DNA of 63,032 bases from an uncultured Lachnospiraceae bacterium. GTDB taxonomy: Bacteria > Bacillota > Clostridia > Lachnospirales > Lachnospiraceae. The DNA lies in NCBI GenBank assembly GCA_964422365.1, contig CAYRAV010000013.1, positions 1 through 63,032 on the forward strand, in the 5' to 3' direction. The translations under genes were made by a program, and so were the position numbers. A model generated the notes under the pieces. It was not told the DNA's origin. It did not search any database and saw only the letters and a program-made list of their open reading frames with translations. Positions 3,128 through 54,952 of this stretch are shown piece by piece. Every line of letters begins with the position of its first letter. Position 1 is the first letter of the stretch.

Positions 3128-3683
3128 CCTTACACTGAAAATTACGCCTAAGATGGTAGTAGATGCCCAAGGAAATGAAAAGAAAGCATTAGTTGGGCAT
3201 TTAGGTACACACTTTGATGTTATGGATAGGGAGTTCCCTCTTAGCTACATTCGCCGTAATGCTGTTGTATTTGATGTAAGTTCTGTTAAAGATAGGGATA
3301 TTGATGTTAACGATATAGATTTTACTATGATAGATAAAGGAATGTTTGTAGGTTTTTATACAGGTTTTATTGAGTTTTGTGCCTATGGTTCAAAAATGTA
3401 TTTTTCAGAACATCCGCAGCTTTCGCATGAATTGATAGACTTTCTTGTGCAAAAAGAAGTATCAATTATTGGAGTGGATTTTGCAGGAGTAAGGCGTGGC
3501 AAAGAGCATACTATTACAGACCAAAAGTGTGTAGAAAAGGGCGTATTCGTTGTTGAAAATTTATGCAATTTAGAACGAGTGGTAGGAGAAAAAAATTTAG
3601 TCATTAATACGTTTCCTATGAATTATGCGGAAATAACGGGTTTGCCTTGCAGGGTGGTTGCAGAAACAAAAAGTGATTTATAG
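3117..3683 (+). CDS. Cyclase family protein (kynurenine formamidase-like fold)
   Basis: HxGTHxD motif (GHLGTHFDVMD), typical of the cyclase family. Start overlaps the marR stop. Confidence 0.7.
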   Translation: MMIDLTLKITPKMVVDAQGNEKKALVGHLGTHFDVMDREFPLSYIRRNAVVFDVSSVKDRDIDVNDIDFTMIDKGMFVGFYTGFIEFCAYGSKMYFSEHPQLSHELIDFLVQKEVSIIGVDFAGVRRGKEHTITDQKCVEKGVFVVENLCNLERVVGEKNLVINTFPMNYAEITGLPCRVVAETKSDL

Positions 3684-46709: not shown

Positions 46710-47639
46710 TTATTTTAACAGATTCAGAAAATTTTGATTTCCAATCACACGAATCATAGGTCCAAAGGATAGTATCTCAATCAGTAATTCTGTTTCTGCA
46801 CCTTTATTATAATAGATGAAACATTCATAAGTGTTTTCATCTATTTTTTTTGTATTTTTTTCATAGTTGGAAAACTGCAGCATAGTACGCTCCAGGGCAT
46901 TTCGTTCGTTTTTGATAATAAGGTGTACTGGTTCTTTGTAGTAGGAATGTTTGATTAATCGGTTAATATTAGGACGCTTTTTCTCGTATTTATCCAGTAG
47001 AGTAACAGTTTCAATCCGGTCTAGATTAACAGTTTCGATTCTGGGTGACTTATTATGCCGGTTTTCTAAGGAGAGCAGGCGGAATTTATTATTTTTCATG
47101 GAATATTCTAATCTGCATGGAATATACCAGTGACGGATTCTGTTTCCCGCTCTGGAATGATATAAAATATCTACATGTTGTTTATTTTTAATTGCAGTAA
47201 CAAGTGTGCGGAAATTATGTATGTATGCAGGGTTAGAAAAATCATCTTTATCTGAAAAACGGTCATAGTAGTAAAAATTTTCTGGTGTCCATAGTGGTAT
47301 CACATCCACAAATAGTTCCATAAGAAACTGAACTTGCTCTTTATCAAGAAACAATTGTATTTTCTCATCGAAAAGAATTGATTTTAAAAAAGAAGTCTGC
47401 AAAGAAGTCAGTGGTACGTAAAAATCACTATTGATTTTAGAAAGAAAAACAGTATCTTCTTTCTTTAATAGATTCCATTCTCCGCTTATTAATTTTGGAA
47501 CAATAAACAATGCACTTTCTTCATACCCTAAGTTTTGCATATAGGTATATAAATCTTTTTGTGTGGCATATTTTCGTGTATCAAGTATAGATTTTAATAC
47601 TTGATAGTAGCAGTTGTATAGTTCTGAAAATAATTTCAT
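46710..47639 (-). CDS. WYL-domain transcriptional regulator (second gene of a tandem pair)
   Basis: WYL-type motif RIRHWYIPCRLEY...FRLLSLE...VNLDRIETV. Start set at the ATG after GGAGG. Confidence 0.55.
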   Translation of the reverse strand: MKLFSELYNCYYQVLKSILDTRKYATQKDLYTYMQNLGYEESALFIVPKLISGEWNLLKKEDTVFLSKINSDFYVPLTSLQTSFLKSILFDEKIQLFLDKEQVQFLMELFVDVIPLWTPENFYYYDRFSDKDDFSNPAYIHNFRTLVTAIKNKQHVDILYHSRAGNRIRHWYIPCRLEYSMKNNKFRLLSLENRHNKSPRIETVNLDRIETVTLLDKYEKKRPNINRLIKHSYYKEPVHLIIKNERNALERTMLQFSNYEKNTKKIDENTYECFIYYNKGAETELLIEILSFGPMIRVIGNQNFLNLLK

Positions 47640-47683
47640 ATGATTACCTCCTAGAATATGCATTTTTTGATAAAATGGAGTTG

Positions 47684-48916
47684 TTAAACATGATACATCT
47701 GATACATTGTTTCTAAATCATGTTCAATACGTGCTTTCAAATTAGAATGTTCTGTTTCAATATCAATGATTCGTCCAATAAAAGAACGAATCCACGGTGC
47801 CATTTCGATTGCATCGAATACATCTTTTTCATAGATAAACACATTTTCTGCAATTTTTGTAATTGTACCATTTTTTCCTTCCCGTTGTAAACGGTTCAAG
47901 ATGTATTGTTCTGATTCTTCGTTAATGGATAGGGTTAATTTCACATGTTGTATGTAACTGCGATTATCGCTTTGAAAAGAAACACCCCATGCCTTGTTGC
48001 GGTTACGGTTTAGTTTTTCTAAAATTGTATCAAAATCAGTACAGTGTTCTAGTAAATTTACTTCCTTAATATAATCTAACCGAATGCAGAAGAAACGTTT
48101 AGGCTGCTCATAATACAGACAAAGGAAACGGCGTCCGGTTTTTGTACTAATGAAAATTTGAAGAGGAATACAGCAAGTGACTTGTTTTCTGCTGTTTTTG
48201 CTGCTTTTGATTGTTATTTCAATCCGTTGCTTTTTTCGCAGGGCCGTTAAAATGGAGAGTAATATTTCGTCTTCTAATGTATGTACAAAAAAGCTGTGTT
48301 TCACACGAAAAAGTCTGTTTTCTTCTGATATGGTATCTAAAATAGTGTTTCCTAAAAAGCCTACTGGTGCAGATAACTGATAAAATTTTAGGGCATCTGC
48401 CAGGGCAGGGCATTTTGAAAGTGTTTCTTTAAAAGAAGAATTCTTATAATAAATGATTTTGTGTCCTTGTTTTTCCTTATGAAGTAATCCTTCGTTTTCA
48501 TATTCATTACATTTTCGCCTTACCATTTGTGTCTCAAAAAGAACACCATATTCATTTAAAATGCTGTCTGTAAGTTCTTCCACTGTTTTTCCTTCCGTTG
48601 TGTTTAGATAATCCAAAAGAAAAAAGTGGAGCATAATATCATTGTCTGTAAAACTTTTGGTTTTCCATACATTATAAAGCGGATTGGTATCTAAAAGGTT
48701 ACTGTCAATGGCAAGAGAAATATTTTTTCCATTACTTGTGTAATCTTTTTTAATAAATTTTGAAAGCCAGCTTTCAATCCGCCTCCGTTCATTATCATAA
48801 GTACGAGGACTTTTTTCTTTAAATTCGCCTCTGGTTTTAAAGCCATATACGAAAAAGTCACGAACATATTCGCGGCTTTTAGAGAAAGATTTGATCAGTT
48901 CTTTAAATTCAGACAT
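47684..48916 (-). CDS. WYL-domain transcriptional regulator (first gene of a tandem pair)
   Basis: WYL-type motif RRFLCLYYEQPKRFFCIRLDYIKEV. RBS AAGGAGG. Confidence 0.55.
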   Translation of the reverse strand: MSEFKELIKSFSKSREYVRDFFVYGFKTRGEFKEKSPRTYDNERRRIESWLSKFIKKDYTSNGKNISLAIDSNLLDTNPLYNVWKTKSFTDNDIMLHFFLLDYLNTTEGKTVEELTDSILNEYGVLFETQMVRRKCNEYENEGLLHKEKQGHKIIYYKNSSFKETLSKCPALADALKFYQLSAPVGFLGNTILDTISEENRLFRVKHSFFVHTLEDEILLSILTALRKKQRIEITIKSSKNSRKQVTCCIPLQIFISTKTGRRFLCLYYEQPKRFFCIRLDYIKEVNLLEHCTDFDTILEKLNRNRNKAWGVSFQSDNRSYIQHVKLTLSINEESEQYILNRLQREGKNGTITKIAENVFIYEKDVFDAIEMAPWIRSFIGRIIDIETEHSNLKARIEHDLETMYQMYHV

Positions 48917-49188: not shown

Positions 49189-49296
49189 GAATTTATAGTT
49201 CGCAACTTTTTTGAAATGATAAATTTTCCATTTCAAGGTATGATAACAACATCACAGATCAACAGTTTCAGACATGAAAAATGTGTTATAGAAAGG

Positions 49297-50538
49297 ATGA
49301 GGGAGATGTTTGTAGTAGCAAATGAAAATACAAAGGTTCCAATGAAAATATGGCTAAGCGGGGCAGACAAAATAGAAGAAAGCTGTTTGGAACAGGCATA
49401 TCATTTAGCAAATCTTCCATTTGTACATAAGTGGGTGTGTTTAATGCCTGATACCCATACAGGAAAAGGAATGCCTATTGGAGGTGTTATTGCAGCAAAA
49501 GATGTGATTATTCCAAATGCAGTGGGTTCTGATATTGGATGCGGCATGGTATTTGCAGCAACTAACATAAAAGCAGCAGATATCAAAGAAATTCAGACAG
49601 GCAATGGAACCATGATACAATCAATGGTTGGCAATATCATGCGTTCTGTGCCAATTGGAGTAAATAAATTTAAAACGAAGCAGGAATCAGCAGTTTTAGC
49701 CAAAGCAGCAGAGGAGATGGAGAAATACAACGAAAATAAAGAGCTGATTCATTTAATAGAAGAAGCATATTATCAGGTAGGAACACTTGGAGGCGGAAAT
49801 CATTTTATTGAATTGCAGGAAGATGAGGAAGGATATTTGTGTGTTATGATTCATTCGGGAAGCCGTCACCTTGGAAAGGAAATCTGTGATTATTTTCACG
49901 ATAAGGCAAGAGCATTAAATATACAATGGCACAGCAGTGTGCTGGAAGAATACAGGCTTGCGTTTTTACCTGTAAACACAAAAGAAGGAAAGGAATATAT
50001 TAACTGGATGAATCTGGCACTTGATTACGCAGAAGAAAATAGAGCACATATGTTAGAAAGTGTTTGCAGGATTGTAAAGGAGCAGATTGAGAAACAGATA
50101 GATGTTACAGTAGAATTTACAGATCACATCAACTGTCATCACAATTATGCGGCATTAGAAAATCATTATGGAGAGAATGTATGGGTGCACCGAAAAGGGG
50201 CGACCAGAGCAAGGGAAGGGGAAAGAGCAGTTATTCCTGGTGCAATGGGTTCCTATAGTTATGTAGTGGAAGGCAAAGGTAATCCAATGACTTTTTGTTC
50301 CTCTTCTCATGGAGCAGGAAGAAATTATTCCAGAAGCGGGGCGAAGGCAAATTTTTCTGTAGAAAAAGTCATGGTAGATTTGAAAGAACAAGGTGTTGTT
50401 CTTGGAAAAAGAAATAAAAATGATGTAGCAGAAGAATGTAGATTTGCCTACAAAGATATTGATGAAGTAATGGAACAGCAAAAAGATCTGGTTACACCAA
50501 TCAGAAAATTAAAAACAGTTGGTGTGGTAAAAGGATAA
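49297..50538 (+). CDS. rtcB: RNA 3'-phosphate/2',3'-cyclic phosphate ligase RtcB
   Basis: RtcB signatures: DTHTGKGMPIGG, GSDIGCGM, GGGNHFIE, HSGSRHLG, NCHHNYA, HRKGAT, SSSHGAGR. Confidence 0.9.
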   Translation: MREMFVVANENTKVPMKIWLSGADKIEESCLEQAYHLANLPFVHKWVCLMPDTHTGKGMPIGGVIAAKDVIIPNAVGSDIGCGMVFAATNIKAADIKEIQTGNGTMIQSMVGNIMRSVPIGVNKFKTKQESAVLAKAAEEMEKYNENKELIHLIEEAYYQVGTLGGGNHFIELQEDEEGYLCVMIHSGSRHLGKEICDYFHDKARALNIQWHSSVLEEYRLAFLPVNTKEGKEYINWMNLALDYAEENRAHMLESVCRIVKEQIEKQIDVTVEFTDHINCHHNYAALENHYGENVWVHRKGATRAREGERAVIPGAMGSYSYVVEGKGNPMTFCSSSHGAGRNYSRSGAKANFSVEKVMVDLKEQGVVLGKRNKNDVAEECRFAYKDIDEVMEQQKDLVTPIRKLKTVGVVKG

Positions 50539-50702
50539 TGCTGGTAACCTGCAAAAGGCAGGATTATCATAGATGAAAGGTTATACTATACATGAGTATG
50601 ACAGAAAATCTGTTGCTCTGTGGTGCCGGCATAATTATGCATGGTATACCGTATAACGTTTCTTTGCACTATTTTGGATATAGCTGCAAAATATAACGTG
50701 GT

Positions 50703-50812
50703 GTCAGTGGTTCAAATCCACTACGGAATTTTCCGTTAGCTCAGCTGGGTAGAGCACCACTGGTAGCCGGAATACGGCAGATGGTTCGAATCCATCAATC
50801 AAAGTACCTGCC
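50703..50812 (+). ncRNA. tRNA-like element with tRNA modules in permuted order (not a canonical tRNA)
   Basis: A T-arm-like hairpin agtggttcaaatccact plus acggaa, then ttccgt plus D-arm gctcagctgggtagagc, a short hairpin gccggaatacggc and a second T-arm gatggttcgaatccatc. No foldable anticodon arm and no CCA. Confidence 0.3.
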
Positions 50813-51141
50813 ACGTACTTTAATCTCATAAATGTAGAATTATCTTTTTGTAGGTGCATGCAGCTGTCTTGCAGTTACATTGCAATTTATAATATTGCTT
50901 GTAAAAATGGGGATACCGTATTCAACTTATTGTATGACATAAAAGAAATCACAGGATTCTGTAAGAGTTTTATTGTTACAGAATCAAGTTGCCGCCAATG
51001 CAGATTTTATTTGTATAAGGCAGCAGGTTTCGGACGCCTTGTACATTAAGCAATCCTTAACCAATTTTCCGCAATATGATAAAAACAAAAGGATAATTCT
51101 ATATGAAACACAGAGCATATGAAAAATATGGGGGAATTTTA

Positions 51142-52251
51142 ATGAAAATGATAGTAATAAAAGAAAAACAGGCAGGATATGTAATAAAAAATGGCATATT
51201 TGTGAAAATGATTACAGCAGGAAAATATTTCTATCCAAAGGCACTAGGATATGAAGTTATAATAGAAGAAATGCTAGGAGAAACAGAGGGCATAGAGCTG
51301 CCATATGAAGTGCTGATAAAAGACAAAAAATATAAAGAATCTGTTATTCGTTTTCAAATACCAGATGGTTCGATTGGATTAATTTATGTAAATGGGATAT
51401 TGAGAACATTTGCAACAAGAAAAGAATACATATTTTGGAATGTATATGAAACTTATGACATAAAACTTATTTCTATGGAAGAAACAGAAATAAACAAGAC
51501 AATAACAAAACAGATGCTTTCTGTTATTCCAAGAACGTATTATACTCAAATATGTGTGGAAGAAGGGGAAACAGGATTATTGTATTACAACAATATTCTA
51601 CAGCGACAGTTAGAACCTGGTATTTATTACTTTTGGAATTACAAAGTAGCTGTTACTTATAGAATTGTAAGCCTTAAGTTGAATGAACTTAATATAATTG
51701 GACAGGAAATTTTAACAAAAGATAAGATAGGAATTAGAATGAATGTAGTATGCTCCTATAAAATCACAGATGCAGTGGGAGTGGCATGCCAGATTACAGA
51801 TCTGGCAAAACAATTGTATTCCTATATCCAGTTAGTAATCAGGGAGTTAGTTGGAAATTATAAATTAGATGAAATATTAGAGCAGAAAAGTAAAATTTCG
51901 GAAGAAATATATGAGAAGCTGAAGAAAAGAGAAACAGAACTTTATGTAGAATTTCTTTCATCAGGAATAAAGGACATTATCTTACCGGGAGAAATAAGAG
52001 ATATTATGAATACTGTACTAGTTGCAGAAAAAACTGCTCAGGCAAATGTTATTACAAGAAGAGAAGAGGTTGCATCTACCCGGTCTTTACTTAATACTGC
52101 AAAATTGATGGAGGAAAATAAAACATTATATAAATTAAAAGAATTAGAATATCTCGAAAAAATCTGCACGAAGGTAGGAGAAATATCTGTGAATGGAAAT
52201 GCAGGACTAATTGAACAATTAAGTATGTTAATAGGAGACAGACAACCATAA
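51142..52251 (+). CDS. SPFH/band-7 (slipin/flotillin-like) domain protein
   Basis: SPFH core followed by a coiled-coil (ILPGEIRDIMNTVLVAEKTAQANVITRREE). Confidence 0.7.
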   Translation: MKMIVIKEKQAGYVIKNGIFVKMITAGKYFYPKALGYEVIIEEMLGETEGIELPYEVLIKDKKYKESVIRFQIPDGSIGLIYVNGILRTFATRKEYIFWNVYETYDIKLISMEETEINKTITKQMLSVIPRTYYTQICVEEGETGLLYYNNILQRQLEPGIYYFWNYKVAVTYRIVSLKLNELNIIGQEILTKDKIGIRMNVVCSYKITDAVGVACQITDLAKQLYSYIQLVIRELVGNYKLDEILEQKSKISEEIYEKLKKRETELYVEFLSSGIKDIILPGEIRDIMNTVLVAEKTAQANVITRREEVASTRSLLNTAKLMEENKTLYKLKELEYLEKICTKVGEISVNGNAGLIEQLSMLIGDRQP

Positions 52252-53392: not shown

Positions 53393-53851
53393 TTATTTAC
53401 GAAAACGTTTGGAGCGTATTTTAAGAAATTCGATGATGTCTTCCTGATCAGCATTAGGCAGATTCTGAAAATAGAATATCAATTCTTTTTCTTTTTTGTT
53501 TAAAAATTTTAGTTTTTTATTGTTATCAGGATTGCTTGTATATGCTAAAAACTCTGTCAATTCATCATTAAGATAGGCAGAATTAGAATGTGTAATTTGA
53601 TAATATTCTTCTGCAACTACATTTGTTGTAATGATGTAGCAAAGCAATTCATCAGGAGGAATGGAATATAGTCTGGCAATTTTATATAAAATGGATGCAC
53701 TTGGTGAATTTCTCCCAGTTTCATAATGAGAATATGCCTGACGGGAAATATCAAGATAAGAAGCCAGGTACTCCTGATTGTATCCATGTAGATTTCGAAG
53801 TTTTCTTAAGCGTTGCTGTAATGTTTCCTTATTATTGGTATCCTTACTCAT
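53393..53851 (-). CDS. XRE-family HTH transcriptional regulator
   Basis: HTH (LRNLHGYNQEYLASYLDISRQAYSHYE). Start set at MSKDT, which follows GGAGG. The ORF track's 5' extension to 54232 is rejected. Confidence 0.75.
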   Translation of the reverse strand: MSKDTNNKETLQQRLRKLRNLHGYNQEYLASYLDISRQAYSHYETGRNSPSASILYKIARLYSIPPDELLCYIITTNVVAEEYYQITHSNSAYLNDELTEFLAYTSNPDNNKKLKFLNKKEKELIFYFQNLPNADQEDIIEFLKIRSKRFRK

Positions 53852-54091
53852 GATAGCCTCCTTATATTTGTTATTATAGGTAGAAAAGAAACCAGATAGG
53901 ATAGAAATGATAGCAATTGCAAAACGATTAAATATAACAGATAGCGGATAGAGGCATAAAGTGCTATGAATGATTGGAAGCAGATCGAAGAGTAGAACAT
54001 TGATTTTTCTGTCAGTTTTTTGAAAAAGAGTAGAGAAAAAGCGATAAGAAGGTTTTATAAGGTCAGAAGAAAAATAGAAGAAAGGGAAAAT

Positions 54092-54158
54092 TATGCAAAC
54101 ACATATCTTTTTTGTGTTTGTACCTATCAAAAATAAACAGGTTTGTGCTTGATAGGGT
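54092..54158 (+). repeat. About 67-bp sequence, direct-repeat partner of 54966-55035
   Basis: tatgcaaacacatatcttttttgtgtttgtacctatcaaaaataaacaggtttgtgcttgatagg. Contains the perfect inverted repeat caaacaca-N10-tgtgtttg and cctatcaa-N19-ttgatagg. Confidence 0.5.
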
Positions 54159-54169
54159 TGGTGCAAATA

Positions 54170-54952
54170 ATGACAGAATTGGAAAAATATTATAATAAAT
54201 TTAATGAGGAAAAACGTCTTAATAGTAGACATGGAAGAGTGGAATACTTAACTTCTATGAAATACATTCATCAATATTTAGATGATATGGAAGAGCCTAA
54301 AGTGCTCGATGTTGGTGCTGGAACCGGAAGGTACTCAGTTCAATTAGCGAATGAGGGATATGATGTAACAGCAATAGAATTGGTAAAGTATAACCTGGGT
54401 ATTTTAAAAGCAAAAAGTAGTTCAGTGAAAGCTTATCAGGGAACTGCTTTAAATTTAAAAAGATTTAGCAACAATTCTTTTGATATGGTATTAGTATTTG
54501 GTCCAATGTACCATTTGTATACATTTGAAGAAAAATTAAAAGCATTACAAGAGTCAAAGAGAGTTACAAAGACAGGGGGGATTATTCTGGTTGCGTACTG
54601 CATGAATGAGTATAGTATATTAACCTATGGCTTTAAAGAAAATAATATAAAAGATTGTATAGAGAAAAAGAAGGTTACAGAAGATTTTCATGTACTGGCA
54701 AAACCAGAAGATTTGTACGATTATGTAAGGCTGGAAGATATTGACAGATTAGATAAAGCGGTAAACTTACAGAGGTTGAAAATCATTTCAGCAGATGGTC
54801 CGGCAAATTATATGCGTCCTGCTTTAAAAGCTATGGATGAAGAAACTTTTGAATTGTTCATGAAATATCATTTATGTACTTGTGAAAGAATGGATATGAT
54901 GGGGGCAGGTGCACATACAGTTGATATTTTAAAGAAAATAGAAGAAGCGTGA
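54170..54952 (+). CDS. Class I SAM-dependent methyltransferase (small-molecule type)
   Basis: Motif I VLDVGAGTGRYS, and a post-I acidic residue context. Confidence 0.8.
   Translation: MTELEKYYNKFNEEKRLNSRHGRVEYLTSMKYIHQYLDDMEEPKVLDVGAGTGRYSVQLANEGYDVTAIELVKYNLGILKAKSSSVKAYQGTALNLKRFSNNSFDMVLVFGPMYHLYTFEEKLKALQESKRVTKTGGIILVAYCMNEYSILTYGFKENNIKDCIEKKKVTEDFHVLAKPEDLYDYVRLEDIDRLDKAVNLQRLKIISADGPANYMRPALKAMDEETFELFMKYHLCTCERMDMMGAGAHTVDILKKIEEA

What the first reader, a model, noticed from the sequence alone, without database searches (positions are those of the whole stretch)
50703..50812. Permuted or duplicated tRNA-like module downstream of rtcB (pseudo-tRNA, att remnant or Y-RNA-like RNA?)
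The sequence contains, in order: a T-arm-like hairpin (agtgg-ttcaaat-ccact), then acggaa; ttccgt followed by a canonical D-arm (gctc-agctgggta-gagc); a short hairpin gccggaatacggc; and a second T-arm (gatgg-ttcgaat-ccatc). The 3' acceptor half (acggaa) precedes its complementary 5' acceptor half (ttccgt). No anticodon stem can be formed and there is no CCA. It is therefore not a functional tRNA gene. Two alternatives fit. It could be a relic of tRNA-targeted integration (tandem att fragments). Or it could be a structured tRNA-mimicking ncRNA. Bacterial Y RNAs (YrlA) contain tRNA-like domains and are typically encoded near rsr and rtcB. No rsr/Ro60 gene is present here, but the rtcB linkage is notable.
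Basis: partly seen in the sequence, partly recalled or inferred. Interest (0 to 1): 0.6.

Follow-up and report, generated by a model that had tools for sequence, protein, structure and literature searches.

The report
tRNA-mimic domain of rtcB–SPFH RNA
The odd "scrambled tRNA" after the RNA-ligase gene rtcB is a conserved tRNA-shaped domain inside a roughly 540-base structured non-coding RNA that always sits in front of an SPFH (Band-7) gene; such an RNA partner of bacterial RNA-repair operons was predicted in 2016 but has never been tested.

Summary

It is neither a tRNA gene nor an integration scar. It is a circularly permuted, YrlA-type tRNA-like domain, in this order:
- anticodon-stem 3' strand and variable loop
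- T arm
- capped acceptor hairpin, then U8-A9
- D arm
- anticodon-stem 5' strand

Across 35 distinct relatives, 97.5% of base-pair cells pair, 14 of 18 pairs show compensatory changes, and the tRNA tertiary nucleotides are near-invariant.

A covariance model finds one such module about 270-600 nt upstream of an SPFH/Band-7 gene in about 55 of 66 loci, usually with rtcB and two WYL-WCX regulator genes. In the window it lies inside a conserved structured RNA spanning almost the whole rtcB-SPFH gap (about 50542-51083). No Rfam family reaches threshold. The second T arm is a covarying, clade-specific addition.

There is no Ro60 gene and no Rsr-binding motif, so this is not YrlA proper. It best fits the RtcB/Band-7-associated tRNA-like RNA predicted by Burroughs and Aravind (2016).

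The likely role is the RNA subunit of an RtcB-SPFH repair particle. That mechanism is inferred, not shown.

The parts
46710..47663 (-). WYL-WCX domain protein (317 aa), second gene of a divergently transcribed pair; probable regulator or sensor
   Evidence: The PADLOC WYL model matches at E 9e-8. The Pfam WYL match for this protein alone is weak (E 0.018). Among 12 family members, 10 hit WYL and 4 hit WCX. The gene is syntenic with the locus in most relatives.
47684..48916 (-). WYL-WCX domain protein (410 aa), first gene of the divergent pair
   Evidence: The PADLOC WYL model matches at E 2e-8. Among 14 family members, 9 hit Pfam WYL (best E 1.6e-8), 3 hit WCX and 3 hit the PaaX winged-helix family. 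hhalign aligns its residues 220-292 with the WYL region of the 317-aa protein.
49216..50538 (+). rtcB RNA ligase gene (440 aa)
   Evidence: Pfam RtcB, E 3.9e-113, full-length match.
50542..50569 (+). Conserved hairpin directly after the rtcB stop codon (UAACCUGC-AAAAG-GCAGGAUUA). No U tract follows it.
   Evidence: Predicted in the fold of the whole gap. The block is conserved in the window clade and in L221/L223. It is not scored as a terminator.
50575..50661 (+). 5' domain: three-helix structure containing the near-invariant CUGYGGUGCC...GGUAU motif
   Evidence: RNAalifold on 20 distinct sequences gives P1 50575-50586/50651-50661 (11 bp, 7 compensatory pairs), P2 50590-50598/50614-50621 and P3 50622-50631/50638-50650. 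nhmmer finds it in all two-T-arm loci with enough sequence. A GGTGCC...GGTAT-like motif is also visible in L069 and L100.
50668..50684 (+). Small conserved hairpin between the 5' domain and the tRNA-like domain
   Evidence: 5 pairs, 86% of cells paired, 3 compensatory pairs.
50695..50763 (+). Permuted tRNA-like domain (the whole module)
   Evidence: Covariance model R1 matches at 59.2 bits, E 1e-19 to 1e-22, the only full match in the window. Structure on 35 distinct sequences: 97.5% of cells paired, against 68% in shuffles and 35-55% with slid partners; 14 of 18 pairs compensatory.
50698..50705 (+). Anticodon-stem-like 3' strand GUGG (50698-50701), pairing with CCAC 50757-50760, followed by the variable loop UGUC (50702-50705, ending in C48)
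   Evidence: In relatives the helix is 5 bp and all 5 pairs are compensatory. In the window there is a 4-nt deletion relative to L221/L223 and the register is shifted. The Levitt pair 15:48 is G:C in 28 sequences and A:U in 3, out of 35.
50706..50722 (+). T arm 1 (AGUGG-UUCAAAU-CCACU)
   Evidence: T54, T55, C56, A58 and C61 are each 35/35. The stem is 99.4% paired and 3 pairs are compensatory.
50723..50736 (+). Closed acceptor-like hairpin (ACGGA-AUUU-UCCGU)
   Evidence: All 4 modelled pairs are compensatory and 98.6% of cells pair. Length varies from 12 to 26 nt or more among relatives.
50737..50755 (+). U8-A9 equivalents followed by the D arm (GCUC-AGCUGGGUA-GAGC)
   Evidence: U8 33/35, A14 35/35, G18 35/35, G19 33/35, A21 35/35. 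The D stem is 100% paired.
50756..50760 (+). Position-26 equivalent (A) and the anticodon-stem-like 5' strand CCAC
50766..50778 (+). Short hairpin GCCG-GAAUA-CGGC immediately before T arm 2
   Evidence: Conserved as a hairpin with changing sequence in the two-T-arm clade: GACUU/AAGUC, GGAC/GUCC, AGGC/GCCU.
50780..50796 (+). T arm 2 (GAUGG-UUCGAAU-CCAUC), a clade-specific extra T-loop arm
   Evidence: 19 sequences: 4 solid pairs, of which 2 covary (GC/AU and CG/UA); the fifth pair is unpaired in 9 of 19. It is present in 21 distinct loci whose SPFH proteins are 56-85% identical to the window's, and absent from L033 (58%), L013 and all more distant loci.
50801..50821 (+). Hairpin AAAGUAC-CUGCCAC-GUACUUU with a 7-nt anticodon-loop-like loop
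   Evidence: Conserved in L221 (loop CUGUCAA) and in L223 (GCAC/GUGC compensatory change, loop CUGUUAA). Similar 5-bp hairpins with CUGUNAA-type 7-nt loops follow the module in many single-T-arm relatives.
50886..51083 (+). 3' domain: outer helix 50886-50902/51068-51083, inner helix 50945-50955/51035-51045, and conserved unpaired GCUUG-N9-GGAUACCG (GGAUACCG at 50911-50918)
   Evidence: RNAalifold on A8: 31 pairs, 23 with compensatory changes. In one search the helices have 6+5 and 8 compensatory pairs. The motif GCCWG-N8-10-GGATACCG is seen 110-260 nt after the T loop across the whole family.
51142..52251 (+). SPFH/Band-7 ('slipin') gene. The probable start is M14 at 51142, preceded by GGGGGA. 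The first in-frame ATG of the open reading frame is at 51103.
   Evidence: Pfam Band_7, E 1.3e-24. Homologues are 363-369 aa long. The AlphaFold2 model (pLDDT 81) has a beta-rich N-terminal region of about 170 aa, an SPFH domain and an 80-residue helix, with no N-terminal helix. Foldseek matches stomatin, HflK/C and erlin, and also major vault protein over more than 420 alignment columns.

Best explanation
Bases 50695-50763 are the tRNA-like domain of a conserved structured non-coding RNA, about 540 nt long (roughly 50542-51083), that fills the gap between rtcB and an SPFH/Band-7 gene.

The domain is a tRNA circularly permuted at the anticodon loop. The acceptor end is capped by a loop. The 'anticodon stem' is made by the strands that enter and leave the domain. 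All nucleotides that build the tRNA elbow are kept, so it should fold into the L-shaped tRNA body, as the YrlA tRNA-like domain does.

A clade-specific second T arm and short hairpins follow it. A 5' domain and a 3' domain flank it.

No promoter-like site on the + strand and no terminator-like site was found in the gap, so the RNA is most likely transcribed with rtcB and the SPFH gene. That operon probably starts at the promoter region shared with a divergent pair of WYL-WCX regulator genes.

Inferred mechanism (not shown):
- The RNA is the RNA subunit of an RtcB/SPFH RNA-repair particle, analogous to Y RNA with Ro60.
- The flanking domains bind the oligomeric, soluble SPFH protein, which has a vault-protein-like layout.
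- The tRNA-shaped domain looks like a tRNA nicked in its anticodon loop, the expected RtcB substrate. It either docks RtcB or other tRNA-recognising factors, or competes with real tRNAs for anticodon nucleases.
For: Shown:
1. Elements present and non-random.
2. YrlA-type topology recognised by Rfam RF02553 over model positions 27-81.
3. Structure supported by covariation: 97.5% of cells paired, 14 of 18 pairs compensatory, covariation score 0.73 against 0.18 in shuffles and at most 0.21 with slid partners.
4. tRNA tertiary nucleotides near-invariant, and the Levitt pair covaries.
5. Model R1 finds one strong hit (40-83 bits) upstream of the SPFH gene in about 55 of 66 loci that have at least 500 nt upstream. 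These include about 19 loci not used to build the model.
6. Synteny: WYL pair / rtcB / RNA / SPFH. Loci that have an rtcB homologue but no such RNA also lack the SPFH and WYL genes.
7. The whole gap is structured: z = -6.8; 84 pairs with 52 compensatory; domain helices; 3' domain 23 of 31 pairs compensatory; family-wide GGATACCG motif.
8. No + strand promoter-like or terminator-like site in the gap. The E. coli relative has a sigma-54-like promoter directly upstream of its RNA.
9. WYL identity of both upstream proteins.
10. The SPFH protein model has no N-terminal helix and has a vault-like domain order.

Literature:
- A Band-7-associated tRNA-like RNA next to RtcB was predicted by Burroughs and Aravind 2016, as summarised in bioRxiv 10.1101/312249.
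- Features and tRNA-enzyme recognition of YrlA: PMC4201824.
- The proposal that the YrlA tRNA-like domain is a competitive inhibitor of an anticodon nuclease: PMC7790460.
Against: - No expression data exist. The RNA ends are unknown, so it could remain part of the mRNA.
- In this particular window the closing helix is the weakest in the family. There is a 4-nt deletion relative to the closest relatives, leaving 4 bp in a shifted register. R1 marks three non-canonical pairs in the family register.
- Nothing tested here shows binding to SPFH or RtcB.
- rtcB is absent from the 9-kb neighbourhood in several loci that have the RNA and the SPFH gene, so a direct RtcB role is not required by the data.
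- No partner was found for T arm 2 or for the conserved UGGC linker.
- The vault-protein similarity rests on low TM scores (0.38-0.47).
- Model R1 also scores junctions of closely spaced tRNA genes (L016, 42.6 bits). The module alone, without the covarying closing helix and the gene context, would therefore not be diagnostic.
Confidence: 0.78

Rival explanations
1. Cis-acting 5' leader of the SPFH mRNA. The structured region, including the tRNA mimic, is a regulatory element rather than a trans-acting RNA. For example, it might bind a tRNA-recognising protein or RtcB, or be cut by an anticodon nuclease, and in that way control translation or stability of the SPFH message.
For: - The RNA is always immediately upstream of the SPFH gene, on the same strand, 270-600 nt from it.
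- In loci without rtcB it lies between the promoter region and the SPFH gene.
- In E. coli it follows a sigma-54-like promoter and precedes the slipin gene.
- No terminator separates the RNA from the SPFH gene.
Against: - No terminator/antiterminator pair was found, and the ribosome-binding site is not sequestered in the consensus structure. The 3' domain closes at 51083, about 45 nt before the GGGGGA site.
- 540 nt with three independently covarying domains is very large for a leader.
- The closest analogues, the yrlA and yrlB RNAs in the rsr-yrlBA-rtcBA operon, are also intercistronic yet act as free RNAs (PMC4201824).
Confidence: 0.15
2. A bona fide YrlA Y RNA that works with a Ro60 (Rsr) protein encoded elsewhere in the genome.
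For: Same permuted tRNA-like topology, a partial Rfam YrlA match, and proximity to rtcB as in Salmonella.
Against: - The score of 33.8 bits is well below the gathering score of 69, and only the tRNA-like core aligns.
- No GNCGAAN0-1G motif anywhere in the gap.
- No TROVE protein among the window ORFs that were scanned.
- None of 29 related loci reaches the YrlA threshold.
- The flanks are different conserved domains rather than a Ro-binding stem.
- The conserved neighbour is an SPFH gene, not rsr.
Confidence: 0.04
3. Decayed tRNA genes or attachment-site remnants left by integration into a tRNA gene, with no function.
For: The order 'T arm, 3' acceptor half, 5' acceptor half, D arm' is also what the junction of two adjacent tRNA genes looks like. 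Model R1 does score such junctions (L016; 92 of 123 pattern hits in viral contigs).
Against: - Compensatory changes keep the capped acceptor hairpin and the closing helix.
- The position relative to the SPFH gene is the same in about 55 loci.
- There is no tRNA gene, integrase or repeat in the window locus.
- The 'normal-order' reading that uses T arm 2 has no acceptor pairing.
Confidence: 0.01
4. A permuted tRNA gene, as in the red alga Cyanidioschyzon, that matures into a real tRNA. RtcB would ligate the ends, and RNase P and RNase Z would then open the capped acceptor end.
For: The 3' half precedes the 5' half and an RNA ligase gene is adjacent. Mycobacterium smegmatis YrlA is cut by RNase P and receives CCA (PMC4201824).
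Against: - There is no anticodon loop or anticodon in the module. The closing-helix strands run on into conserved flanking domains.
- The acceptor hairpin is only 4-5 bp in most members, including the window. In M. smegmatis YrlA, a 7-bp stem was the feature linked to RNase P cleavage.
- No bulge-helix-bulge motif was noticed on inspection; I ran no dedicated search for one.
Confidence: 0.02

Closest known systems
Band-7-associated tRNA-like RNA ('b7a-tRNA') of the RtcB/Band-7 RNA-repair system (Burroughs and Aravind, Nucleic Acids Res 2016). I know it through its summary in bioRxiv 10.1101/312249 and from my memory of the abstract; the paper itself was not readable here.
   Same: A predicted tRNA-like ncRNA encoded next to a Band-7/SPFH gene and RtcB, proposed as the cognate RNA of an SPFH scaffold in RNA repair. 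The gene context matches here: rtcB, then the RNA, then the SPFH gene. In E. coli the context is RNA, slipin gene, then an RlaP nucleotidyltransferase.
   Different: b7a-tRNA is described as 'strongly resembling an authentic tRNA'. The same source says YrlA is only 'occasionally' found next to Band-7.

Here ARAGORN and the Rfam tRNA model do not call a tRNA. The topology is the permuted YrlA one, and it is the rule, not the exception, among relatives of this SPFH protein.

The tRNA-like part is also only about 70 of roughly 540 conserved structured nucleotides, and one clade carries a second T arm. I could not check whether the original paper described these features.
YrlA, the bacterial Y RNA with a tRNA-like domain (Rfam RF02553; Chen et al. 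2014, PMC4201824; Wang et al. 2018)
   Same: Same permuted order: variable region, T arm, capped acceptor stem-loop, D arm, closed by a helix formed from the entering and leaving strands. The same conserved tRNA tertiary nucleotides are kept, including G15:C48 / A15:U48 covariation. Both are linked to rtcB.
   Different: No rsr/Ro60 gene, no GNCGAAN0-1G Rsr-binding motif and no Ro-binding stem. The Rfam score is half the gathering score. The domain is embedded in much larger, different flanking domains, and the conserved partner gene is an SPFH gene.
Vault particle (major vault protein + vault RNA + TEP1)
   Same: The SPFH protein model has beta-rich N-terminal repeats, an SPFH 'shoulder' and a long C-terminal helix. 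This is the domain order of major vault protein, which Foldseek aligns over more than 420 columns. Both are associated with a small or medium structured RNA.
   Different: The TM scores are low (0.38-0.47). The protein is half the size of major vault protein. No assembly or RNA binding was tested, and the best statistical matches are stomatin and HflK/C. This is a resemblance, not an established relationship.
PafBC / BrxR / CapW-type WYL-WCX regulators, and RtcR, the CARF regulator of rtcBA that senses tRNA fragments (PMC7790460)
   Same: Two adjacent paralogous WYL-WCX genes lie divergent from the operon, like PafB/PafC. They occupy the position that RtcR holds at proteobacterial rtc operons.
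   Different: No ligand, DNA-binding site or regulatory effect was tested. The N-terminal helix-turn-helix domain is detected only weakly (PaaX-like in 3 of 14 members).

Membership tests
YrlA (Rfam RF02553; Chen et al. 2014) | tRNA-like domain in the order V region, T arm, closed acceptor stem-loop, D arm, closed by a terminal helix | tested here: met
   The Rfam alignment covers exactly these elements. They are supported by covariation in 35 sequences, and the tertiary nucleotides are conserved.
YrlA (Rfam RF02553; Chen et al. 2014) | Reaches the Rfam gathering score (69 bits) over the full 114-position model | tested here: not met
   33.8 bits, model positions 27-81 only. There is no YrlA hit at gathering score in the window or in 29 related loci.
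YrlA (Rfam RF02553; Chen et al. 2014) | GNCGAAN0-1G motif (Rsr/Ro60-binding) near the 5' end, in a helix formed by the RNA's 5' and 3' ends | tested here: not met
   The motif does not occur in 50539-51141. The only CGAA in that stretch is in T loop 2. The flanks form different conserved domains.
YrlA (Rfam RF02553; Chen et al. 2014) | Encoded next to an rsr (Ro60/TROVE) gene | tested here: not met
   No TROVE domain among the 10 ORFs flanking the locus or the 10 other ORFs of 380 aa or more that were scanned; four ORFs of 389-413 aa far from the locus were not scanned. The conserved neighbours are the SPFH gene, rtcB and the WYL genes. An rsr gene elsewhere in the genome cannot be excluded.
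YrlA (Rfam RF02553; Chen et al. 2014) | Bound by Rsr; modified by tRNA enzymes (pseudouridine 55, dihydrouridine) | not testable with these tools
   Requires immunoprecipitation and modification mapping.
Band-7-associated tRNA-like RNA (b7a-tRNA; Burroughs and Aravind 2016) | Conserved tRNA-like RNA encoded adjacent to a Band-7/SPFH gene | tested here: met
   An R1 hit lies 270-600 nt upstream of the SPFH gene in about 55 of 66 loci. In the window, 50695-50763 lies 379 nt before the probable SPFH start at 51142.
Band-7-associated tRNA-like RNA (b7a-tRNA; Burroughs and Aravind 2016) | Association with RtcB or another RNA-repair enzyme | tested here: met
   rtcB lies directly upstream in the window and in most loci. 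In E. coli an RlaP nucleotidyltransferase lies downstream. The association is not universal: L034, L069 and L086 have none within the fetched locus (about 8.4-9.1 kb).
Band-7-associated tRNA-like RNA (b7a-tRNA; Burroughs and Aravind 2016) | 'Strongly resembles an authentic tRNA' (wording of bioRxiv 10.1101/312249) | tested here: inconclusive
   The sequence and tertiary signature are tRNA-like, but the order is permuted. ARAGORN calls nothing and the Rfam tRNA model gives 22.9 bits against a threshold of 29, with an unpaired acceptor. The original description could not be read.
Canonical tRNA gene | Cloverleaf with an acceptor stem formed by the 5' and 3' ends, and an anticodon arm with a 7-nt loop | tested here: not met
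   ARAGORN finds 0 genes. The Rfam tRNA score is below threshold and the acceptor is mismatched. The acceptor is a capped hairpin.
Permuted tRNA gene (Cyanidioschyzon type) | 3' half upstream of 5' half, with a complete anticodon arm after the ends are joined | tested here: not met
   The order of the halves is met. No anticodon loop is encoded, and the closing-helix strands continue into conserved flanking domains. I saw no bulge-helix-bulge motif but ran no dedicated search.
tmRNA, including two-piece (permuted) forms | tRNA-like domain with an aminoacylatable acceptor end, plus a tag reading frame | tested here: not met
   ARAGORN's tmRNA search finds nothing, and there is no Rfam tmRNA hit.
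Riboswitch or T-box-like transcriptional leader | Expression platform: a terminator/antiterminator pair or sequestration of the ribosome-binding site | tested here: not met
   No terminator-like site on the + strand in 50500-51300. The consensus structure ends about 45 nt before the ribosome-binding site. Other regulatory modes are not excluded.

The most novel reading that the evidence does not exclude
The rtcB-SPFH gap encodes a previously uncatalogued large structured RNA of about 540 nt with three covarying domains and no Rfam family. It would be the RNA core of a soluble, vault-like SPFH cage.

In this reading, the central domain imitates a tRNA that has been nicked in its anticodon loop. 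The neighbouring hairpins, with 7-nt CUGUNAA-type loops, imitate anticodon loops of the GUN (queuosine-family) tRNAs. Together they would act as bait or sensor for anticodon nucleases, coupling tRNA damage to RtcB-mediated repair. The WYL-WCX pair would detect the resulting RNA fragments.
Probability: 0.15. Interest if true: 0.8.

Novelty: new variant of a known kind. Interest (0 to 1): 0.55.

Why it matters
Bacterial RtcB operons are known to respond to tRNA damage, but what the associated tRNA-like RNAs do is an open question. For YrlA it is unresolved. For the Band-7-associated RNA there is not yet any experimental evidence that the RNA exists.

This locus gives a well-defined, covariation-supported model of that RNA in gut and rumen Clostridia (mostly Lachnospiraceae). 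It also shows four things:
- The tRNA mimic is only one domain of a much larger conserved RNA.
- The RNA travels with the SPFH gene rather than with rtcB.
- In these Clostridia loci a pair of WYL-WCX genes occupies the regulator's position, where RtcR sits in Proteobacteria.
- The SPFH partner appears to lack the N-terminal membrane anchor of typical stomatin/HflK-type proteins and has a vault-like layout.

Together these define concrete experiments in cultured organisms: Eubacterium ruminantium ATCC 17233, E. coli STEC639, and possibly Pseudomonas aeruginosa PA14, whose rtc locus contains an SPFH gene (PMC13086221). They would test the long-standing idea that tRNA-shaped RNAs act as cofactors or decoys in RNA repair. 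The family would also merit a covariance model in Rfam, since current annotation leaves these 500-700-nt gaps blank.

Tried and rejected
1. **Standard detectors.** ARAGORN and Rfam at gathering thresholds found nothing. Only the E-value mode of Rfam gave the lead.

2. **Normal-order tRNA reading.** This reading runs from the 3' half of the hairpin through the D arm and short hairpin to T arm 2 (Rfam tRNA, 22.9 bits). I rejected it because the sequence after T arm 2 is not complementary to the would-be 5' acceptor strand in any relative. The capped hairpin, by contrast, covaries.

3. **RNAfold's 7-bp outer stem.** The stem 50696-50702 / 50810-50816 would enclose both T arms. I rejected it because its 3' strand is the loop and 3' side of a hairpin (50801-50821) that is itself conserved with a compensatory change. 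In the closest relatives the sequence there (GTCAAGT, GTTAAGT) cannot pair with the upstream strand.

4. **A partner for T arm 2 or the UGGC linker.** An all-against-all column covariation scan of the clade alignment found nothing convincing.

5. **Finding the 5' and 3' domains in the single-T-arm clade.**
   - Sequence profiles (nhmmer) found nothing.
   - MAFFT plus RNAalifold on those sequences failed because the alignment was too divergent.
   - Only the short GCCWG-N8-10-GGATACCG motif and GGTGCC...GGTAT support homology there.

6. **Phage or plasmid origin.** blastn of the gap against phage genomes found no match. A T-arm / D-arm pattern scan of viral contigs returned mostly tRNA-tRNA junctions and some YrlA-like modules, none next to SPFH or RtcB homologues.

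7. **Reading the source papers.** Burroughs and Aravind 2016 and the 2020 Annual Review on Ro60 and Y RNAs are not held in the library.

8. **The WYL proteins.** PDB sequence searches for the two WYL proteins were uninformative. Pfam on single sequences was below threshold. Family-wide scanning and PADLOC settled their identity.

9. **The 63-aa ORF at 50858-51049.** It lies inside the 3' domain. I treated it as spurious because the region evolves by paired compensatory changes and by insertions and deletions of variable length.
Full report
**1. Observation**

- T arm AGTGG-TTCAAAT-CCACT, 50706-50722.
- ACGGA-ATTT-TCCGT, 50723-50736.
- TA, then the D arm GCTC-AGCTGGGTA-GAGC, 50739-50755.
- Hairpin GCCG-GAATA-CGGC, 50766-50778.
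- A second T arm GATGG-TTCGAAT-CCATC, 50780-50796.

The T-loop consensus GGTTCRAWTCC occurs only at these two places in the 63-kb window, against 0.05 expected. The D-arm consensus occurs only here.

ARAGORN finds no tRNA or tmRNA in the whole window, and Rfam finds nothing at gathering score. With permissive thresholds the best Rfam match is YrlA (RF02553): 33.8 bits, E 2e-5, against a gathering score of 69. It covers model positions 27-81, which are the T arm, a closed hairpin and the D arm. The tRNA model gives 22.9 bits for a 'normal-order' reading that uses T arm 2, but with a mismatched acceptor stem.

**2. Gene context**

The upstream ORF 49216-50538 is RtcB (Pfam E 4e-113). The next ORF downstream is an SPFH/Band-7 protein. 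Two divergently oriented ORFs upstream (410 and 317 aa) had no Pfam hit on their own.

No TROVE/Ro60 domain was found among the ORFs scanned: the 10 flanking the locus and 10 of the other ORFs of 380 aa or more. Four ORFs of 389-413 aa far from the locus were not scanned.

The window is an AT-rich (about 33% G+C) bacterial chromosome. Its relatives are Lachnospiraceae and other Clostridia, from gut and rumen metagenomes among others.

**3. Conservation**

A scan of one genome per species with the RtcB protein gave 18 loci.
- Twelve have two T loops 67-83 nt apart, 170-350 nt after rtcB. L013 (Eubacterium ruminantium) has one T loop.
- In all 13 the stems change by compensatory substitutions.
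- All 13 share the SPFH gene, and nearly all have at least one of the two upstream genes within the fetched flank.
- The five loci without the RNA also lack those genes.

A metagenome scan with an alignment of the SPFH protein gave 80 more loci, 38-74% identical. In nearly all that have enough upstream DNA, a T loop lies 270-600 nt before the SPFH gene. The order is always the same:
- a 5-nt strand
- a 4-5-nt variable loop ending in C
- T arm
- a closed hairpin of 12-26 nt or more
- UA
- D arm
- one nucleotide
- a 5-nt strand complementary to the first

**4. Structure test**

On 35 distinct sequences (alignment A5) the four helices pair in 97.5% of cells. The controls give 68% in column shuffles and 35-55% when partners are slid. 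Fourteen of 18 pairs show changes on both sides. The covariation score is 0.73, against 0.18 and at most 0.21 in the controls.

The nucleotides that build the tRNA elbow are kept:
- U8 33/35, A14 35/35, G18 35/35, G19 33/35, A21 35/35
- T54, T55, C56, A58 and C61 each 35/35
- the Levitt pair is G15:C48 in 28 sequences and A15:U48 in 3

This is the pattern reported for YrlA (PMC4201824).

A covariance model built from A5 (R1) finds exactly one full match in the window, 50695-50763 at 59.2 bits. It finds one strong match upstream of the SPFH gene in about 55 of 66 loci that have at least 500 nt of upstream sequence, including about 19 loci not used to build it. The 11 loci without a match all have SPFH proteins at most 47% identical to the window's.

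One caveat: R1 also scores junctions between tightly spaced tRNA genes (L016). The covarying closing helix and the gene context are therefore what distinguish this RNA.

**5. The window copy in detail**

The two closest relatives (SPFH 84-85% identical) show that the window has lost 4 nt in the 3' strand of the closing helix: GAGCAC----CAC in the window, GAGCACATATC in L223. L223 keeps a perfect ATATG/CATAT helix. The window is left with GUGG/CCAC (50698-50701 with 50757-50760) in a shifted register, and R1 flags three non-canonical pairs in the family register. The rest of the module is intact.

RNAfold's alternative 7-bp outer stem is not conserved and conflicts with a conserved hairpin, so I reject it.

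**6. The second T arm**

T arm 2 occurs in 21 distinct loci whose SPFH proteins are 56-85% identical to the window's, and is absent from L033 (58%), L013 and all more distant loci. Its stem has four solid pairs, two of them covarying, and an invariant T-loop sequence. It is preceded by a short covarying hairpin.

It does not form a second tRNA, because no acceptor pairing exists. I found no partner for it.

A few distant loci (L069, L071, L097) carry two complete permuted modules in tandem. T arm 2 may therefore be what remains of, or a step towards, such a duplication. That is inference.

**7. It is part of a much larger RNA**

- The whole 564-nt gap folds far better than shuffled sequence (z = -6.8).
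- RNAalifold on 12 loci predicts 84 pairs, 52 of them with compensatory changes.
- With 20 distinct sequences of the window clade the supported elements are:
  - a 5' domain, 50575-50661
  - a hairpin, 50668-50684
  - the tRNA-like domain
  - T arm 2
  - a 3' domain whose outer helix (50886-50902 with 51068-51083) and inner helix (50945-50955 with 51035-51045) are rich in compensatory changes
- A separate alignment of the 3' domain gives 23 compensatory pairs out of 31.
- The unpaired motif GCCWG-N8-10-GGATACCG (GGATACCG at 50911-50918) is found 110-260 nt after the T loop across the whole family, including distant members.
- A GGTGCC...GGTAT motif of the 5' domain is visible in distant loci.
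- No Rfam family matches any of this in 29 loci.

**8. Hairpins with anticodon-like loops**

In many single-T-arm relatives the module is followed by a 5-bp hairpin with a 7-nt loop such as CUGUCAA, CUGUCAC, CUGAUAA or CUACCAA. In one subclade of the two-T-arm group, the hairpin before T arm 2 has CUGUAAA or CUGUCAA.

In the window and its closest relatives, the hairpin after T arm 2 (50801-50821) has CUGCCAC, CUGUCAA or CUGUUAA, with a compensatory stem change in L223.

The pattern Y-U-N-N-N-R-A is that of an anticodon loop, and GUN anticodons recur. This is suggestive only. The loops are not uniform and I did not test the pattern statistically.

**9. Transcription**

No sigma-70-like promoter on the + strand and no intrinsic terminator lies in the gap. 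Where rtcB is absent, the RNA lies between the divergent WYL genes and the SPFH gene. In an E. coli relative a sigma-54-like TGGCAC-N5-TCGCA precedes the RNA. Co-transcription with the SPFH gene, and with rtcB when it is present, is therefore the most economical reading. Whether the RNA is then cut out is unknown.

**10. The proteins**

*The two upstream proteins.* Both are WYL-WCX proteins.
- The PADLOC WYL model matches at E 2e-8 and 9e-8 on the window's own sequences.
- Pfam WYL hits 9 of 14 and 10 of 12 family members; WCX hits 3 and 4.
- They are a PafB/PafC-like pair, sitting where RtcR sits at proteobacterial rtc operons. RtcR senses tRNA fragments (PMC7790460).

*The SPFH protein.*
- It probably starts at M14 (51142), after GGGGGA. 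Homologues are 363-369 aa.
- An AlphaFold2 model (pLDDT 81) shows about 170 residues of beta structure, an SPFH domain and an 80-residue helix, with no N-terminal helix that could be a membrane anchor.
- Foldseek matches stomatin, HflK/C, erlin and prohibitin over the C-terminal 210-270 columns. It aligns major vault protein over more than 420 columns, with the best query TM score of 0.47.
- The vault-like layout is a lead, not a result.

*Linkage.* The RNA plus the SPFH gene also occur alone among unrelated genes (L034, L069, L086). In E. coli they occur with an RlaP nucleotidyltransferase (PF10127, E 1e-96). The obligate pair is therefore the RNA and the SPFH gene.

**11. Comparison with what is known**

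Wang et al. (bioRxiv 10.1101/312249) summarise Burroughs and Aravind 2016 as follows. In some bacteria RtcB is encoded next to a Band-7 protein and a predicted 'band 7-associated tRNA' that strongly resembles a tRNA. YrlA is occasionally found next to Band-7. None of this has been validated experimentally. I recall from the abstract of the 2016 paper that SPFH/Band-7 modules and a 'novel tRNA-like molecule' were proposed as scaffold and cognate RNA in RNA repair. I could not read the paper itself.

The locus here is therefore a member of a predicted kind. It works like YrlA in topology but fails the YrlA membership tests: no rsr, no Rsr-binding motif, and a sub-threshold score. Several features may or may not have been described before:
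- the permuted topology as the rule next to this SPFH family
- the roughly 540-nt three-domain RNA
- the clade-specific second T arm
- the anticodon-like loops
- the WYL pair

No later paper in the searchable library mentions the RNA.

**12. Mechanism**

What is shown is a conserved tRNA-shaped domain within a conserved structured RNA, fixed in position before an SPFH gene and usually after rtcB.

What is inferred is this. The RNA is the RNA subunit of an SPFH/RtcB repair particle. Its tRNA-like domain is topologically a tRNA opened at the anticodon loop with a sealed acceptor end, which is the shape of RtcB's expected substrate. It would either dock RtcB or other tRNA-binding factors, or act as a decoy for anticodon nucleases, as was suggested for YrlA. 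The flanking domains would hold the SPFH oligomer.

The main rival is a cis-acting leader of the SPFH mRNA, to which I give about 0.15. The att-remnant, true-YrlA and maturing permuted-tRNA readings are each unlikely, for the reasons given under rival explanations.

**13. Verdict**

The relic half is refuted.

Novelty: a new variant, or at least a newly characterised member, of a computationally predicted and experimentally untested kind.

Interest is moderate to good (0.55). It is not a new category, but it gives a sharp, testable model for an open question in bacterial RNA repair.

Noticed in passing
L223:1271-2800 (closest relative of the window locus; Logan SRR25400508): A 509-aa ORF with no Pfam, PDB-sequence or PADLOC match is inserted between the structured RNA and the SPFH gene. 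Otherwise this locus is 85% identical to the window at the SPFH protein level. It could be an extra component of the system or a mobile insertion.
   Followed up: partly
L016:6198-6740 (uncultured Clostridia MAG): A distant rtcB (43% identical) is followed directly by an array of at least five tRNA genes instead of the structured RNA. This is another form of rtcB-tRNA linkage.
   Followed up: no
L097:88-1463 and 3437-3563: An 11-gene tRNA array lies about 2 kb upstream of two tandem permuted tRNA-like modules that precede an SPFH gene. Rfam scores the junction of the two modules (3475-3535) as a 'tRNA' at 41.6 bits. The array may indicate how the tandem modules arose.
   Followed up: partly
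L069:3620-3775, L071:322-470, L068: Two complete permuted modules lie in tandem. The second is followed directly by a full 5-bp anticodon-like stem-loop (CAGGA-CUUUUAU-CCUG).
   Followed up: partly
L099:5690-6004 (E. coli STEC639, record CP061233.1): A sigma-54-like promoter (TGGCAC-N5-TCGCA) is followed by a T arm and a 7-bp capped hairpin, about 180 nt upstream of a 'slipin family' gene. That gene is followed by an RlaP nucleotidyltransferase. This is a proteobacterial version of the module in a cultivable strain. No D arm was recognisable by eye.
   Followed up: partly
L039:3337-3578 and L040:5245-5486: tRNA-Tyr(GTA) and tRNA-Ser(GCT) genes lie immediately downstream of the SPFH gene in one subgroup. 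GUA is also the 'anticodon' seen in several of the anticodon-like hairpin loops of the RNA.
   Followed up: no
Viral contigs, e.g. L111:1125-1173, L114:4119-4166, L150:6186-6237, L212:6347-6396: About 17 phage contigs carry 'T arm, capped hairpin, D arm' modules that ARAGORN does not call as tRNAs. No SPFH or RtcB homologue of the window proteins lies nearby. These are probably phage YrlA-like RNAs.
   Followed up: partly
window 50858-51049 (+): A 63-aa ATG ORF lies entirely inside the 3' domain of the RNA. A matching 63-residue gene call exists in L223. It is probably spurious, given the paired compensatory substitutions and variable-length insertions in this region.
   Followed up: partly
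window 50822-50885 compared with L221/L223 (alignment A11, columns 337-397): The closest relatives carry an insertion of about 60 nt between the post-T-arm-2 hairpin and the 3' domain, which the window lacks. This linker is the most variable part of the RNA.
   Followed up: no
window 53393-54232 (-) and 54143-54952 (+): An HTH_3 (Cro/C1-type) protein ORF and a class I methyltransferase ORF on opposite strands overlap by about 90 nt at their starts as listed. The start codons are probably over-extended.
   Followed up: no
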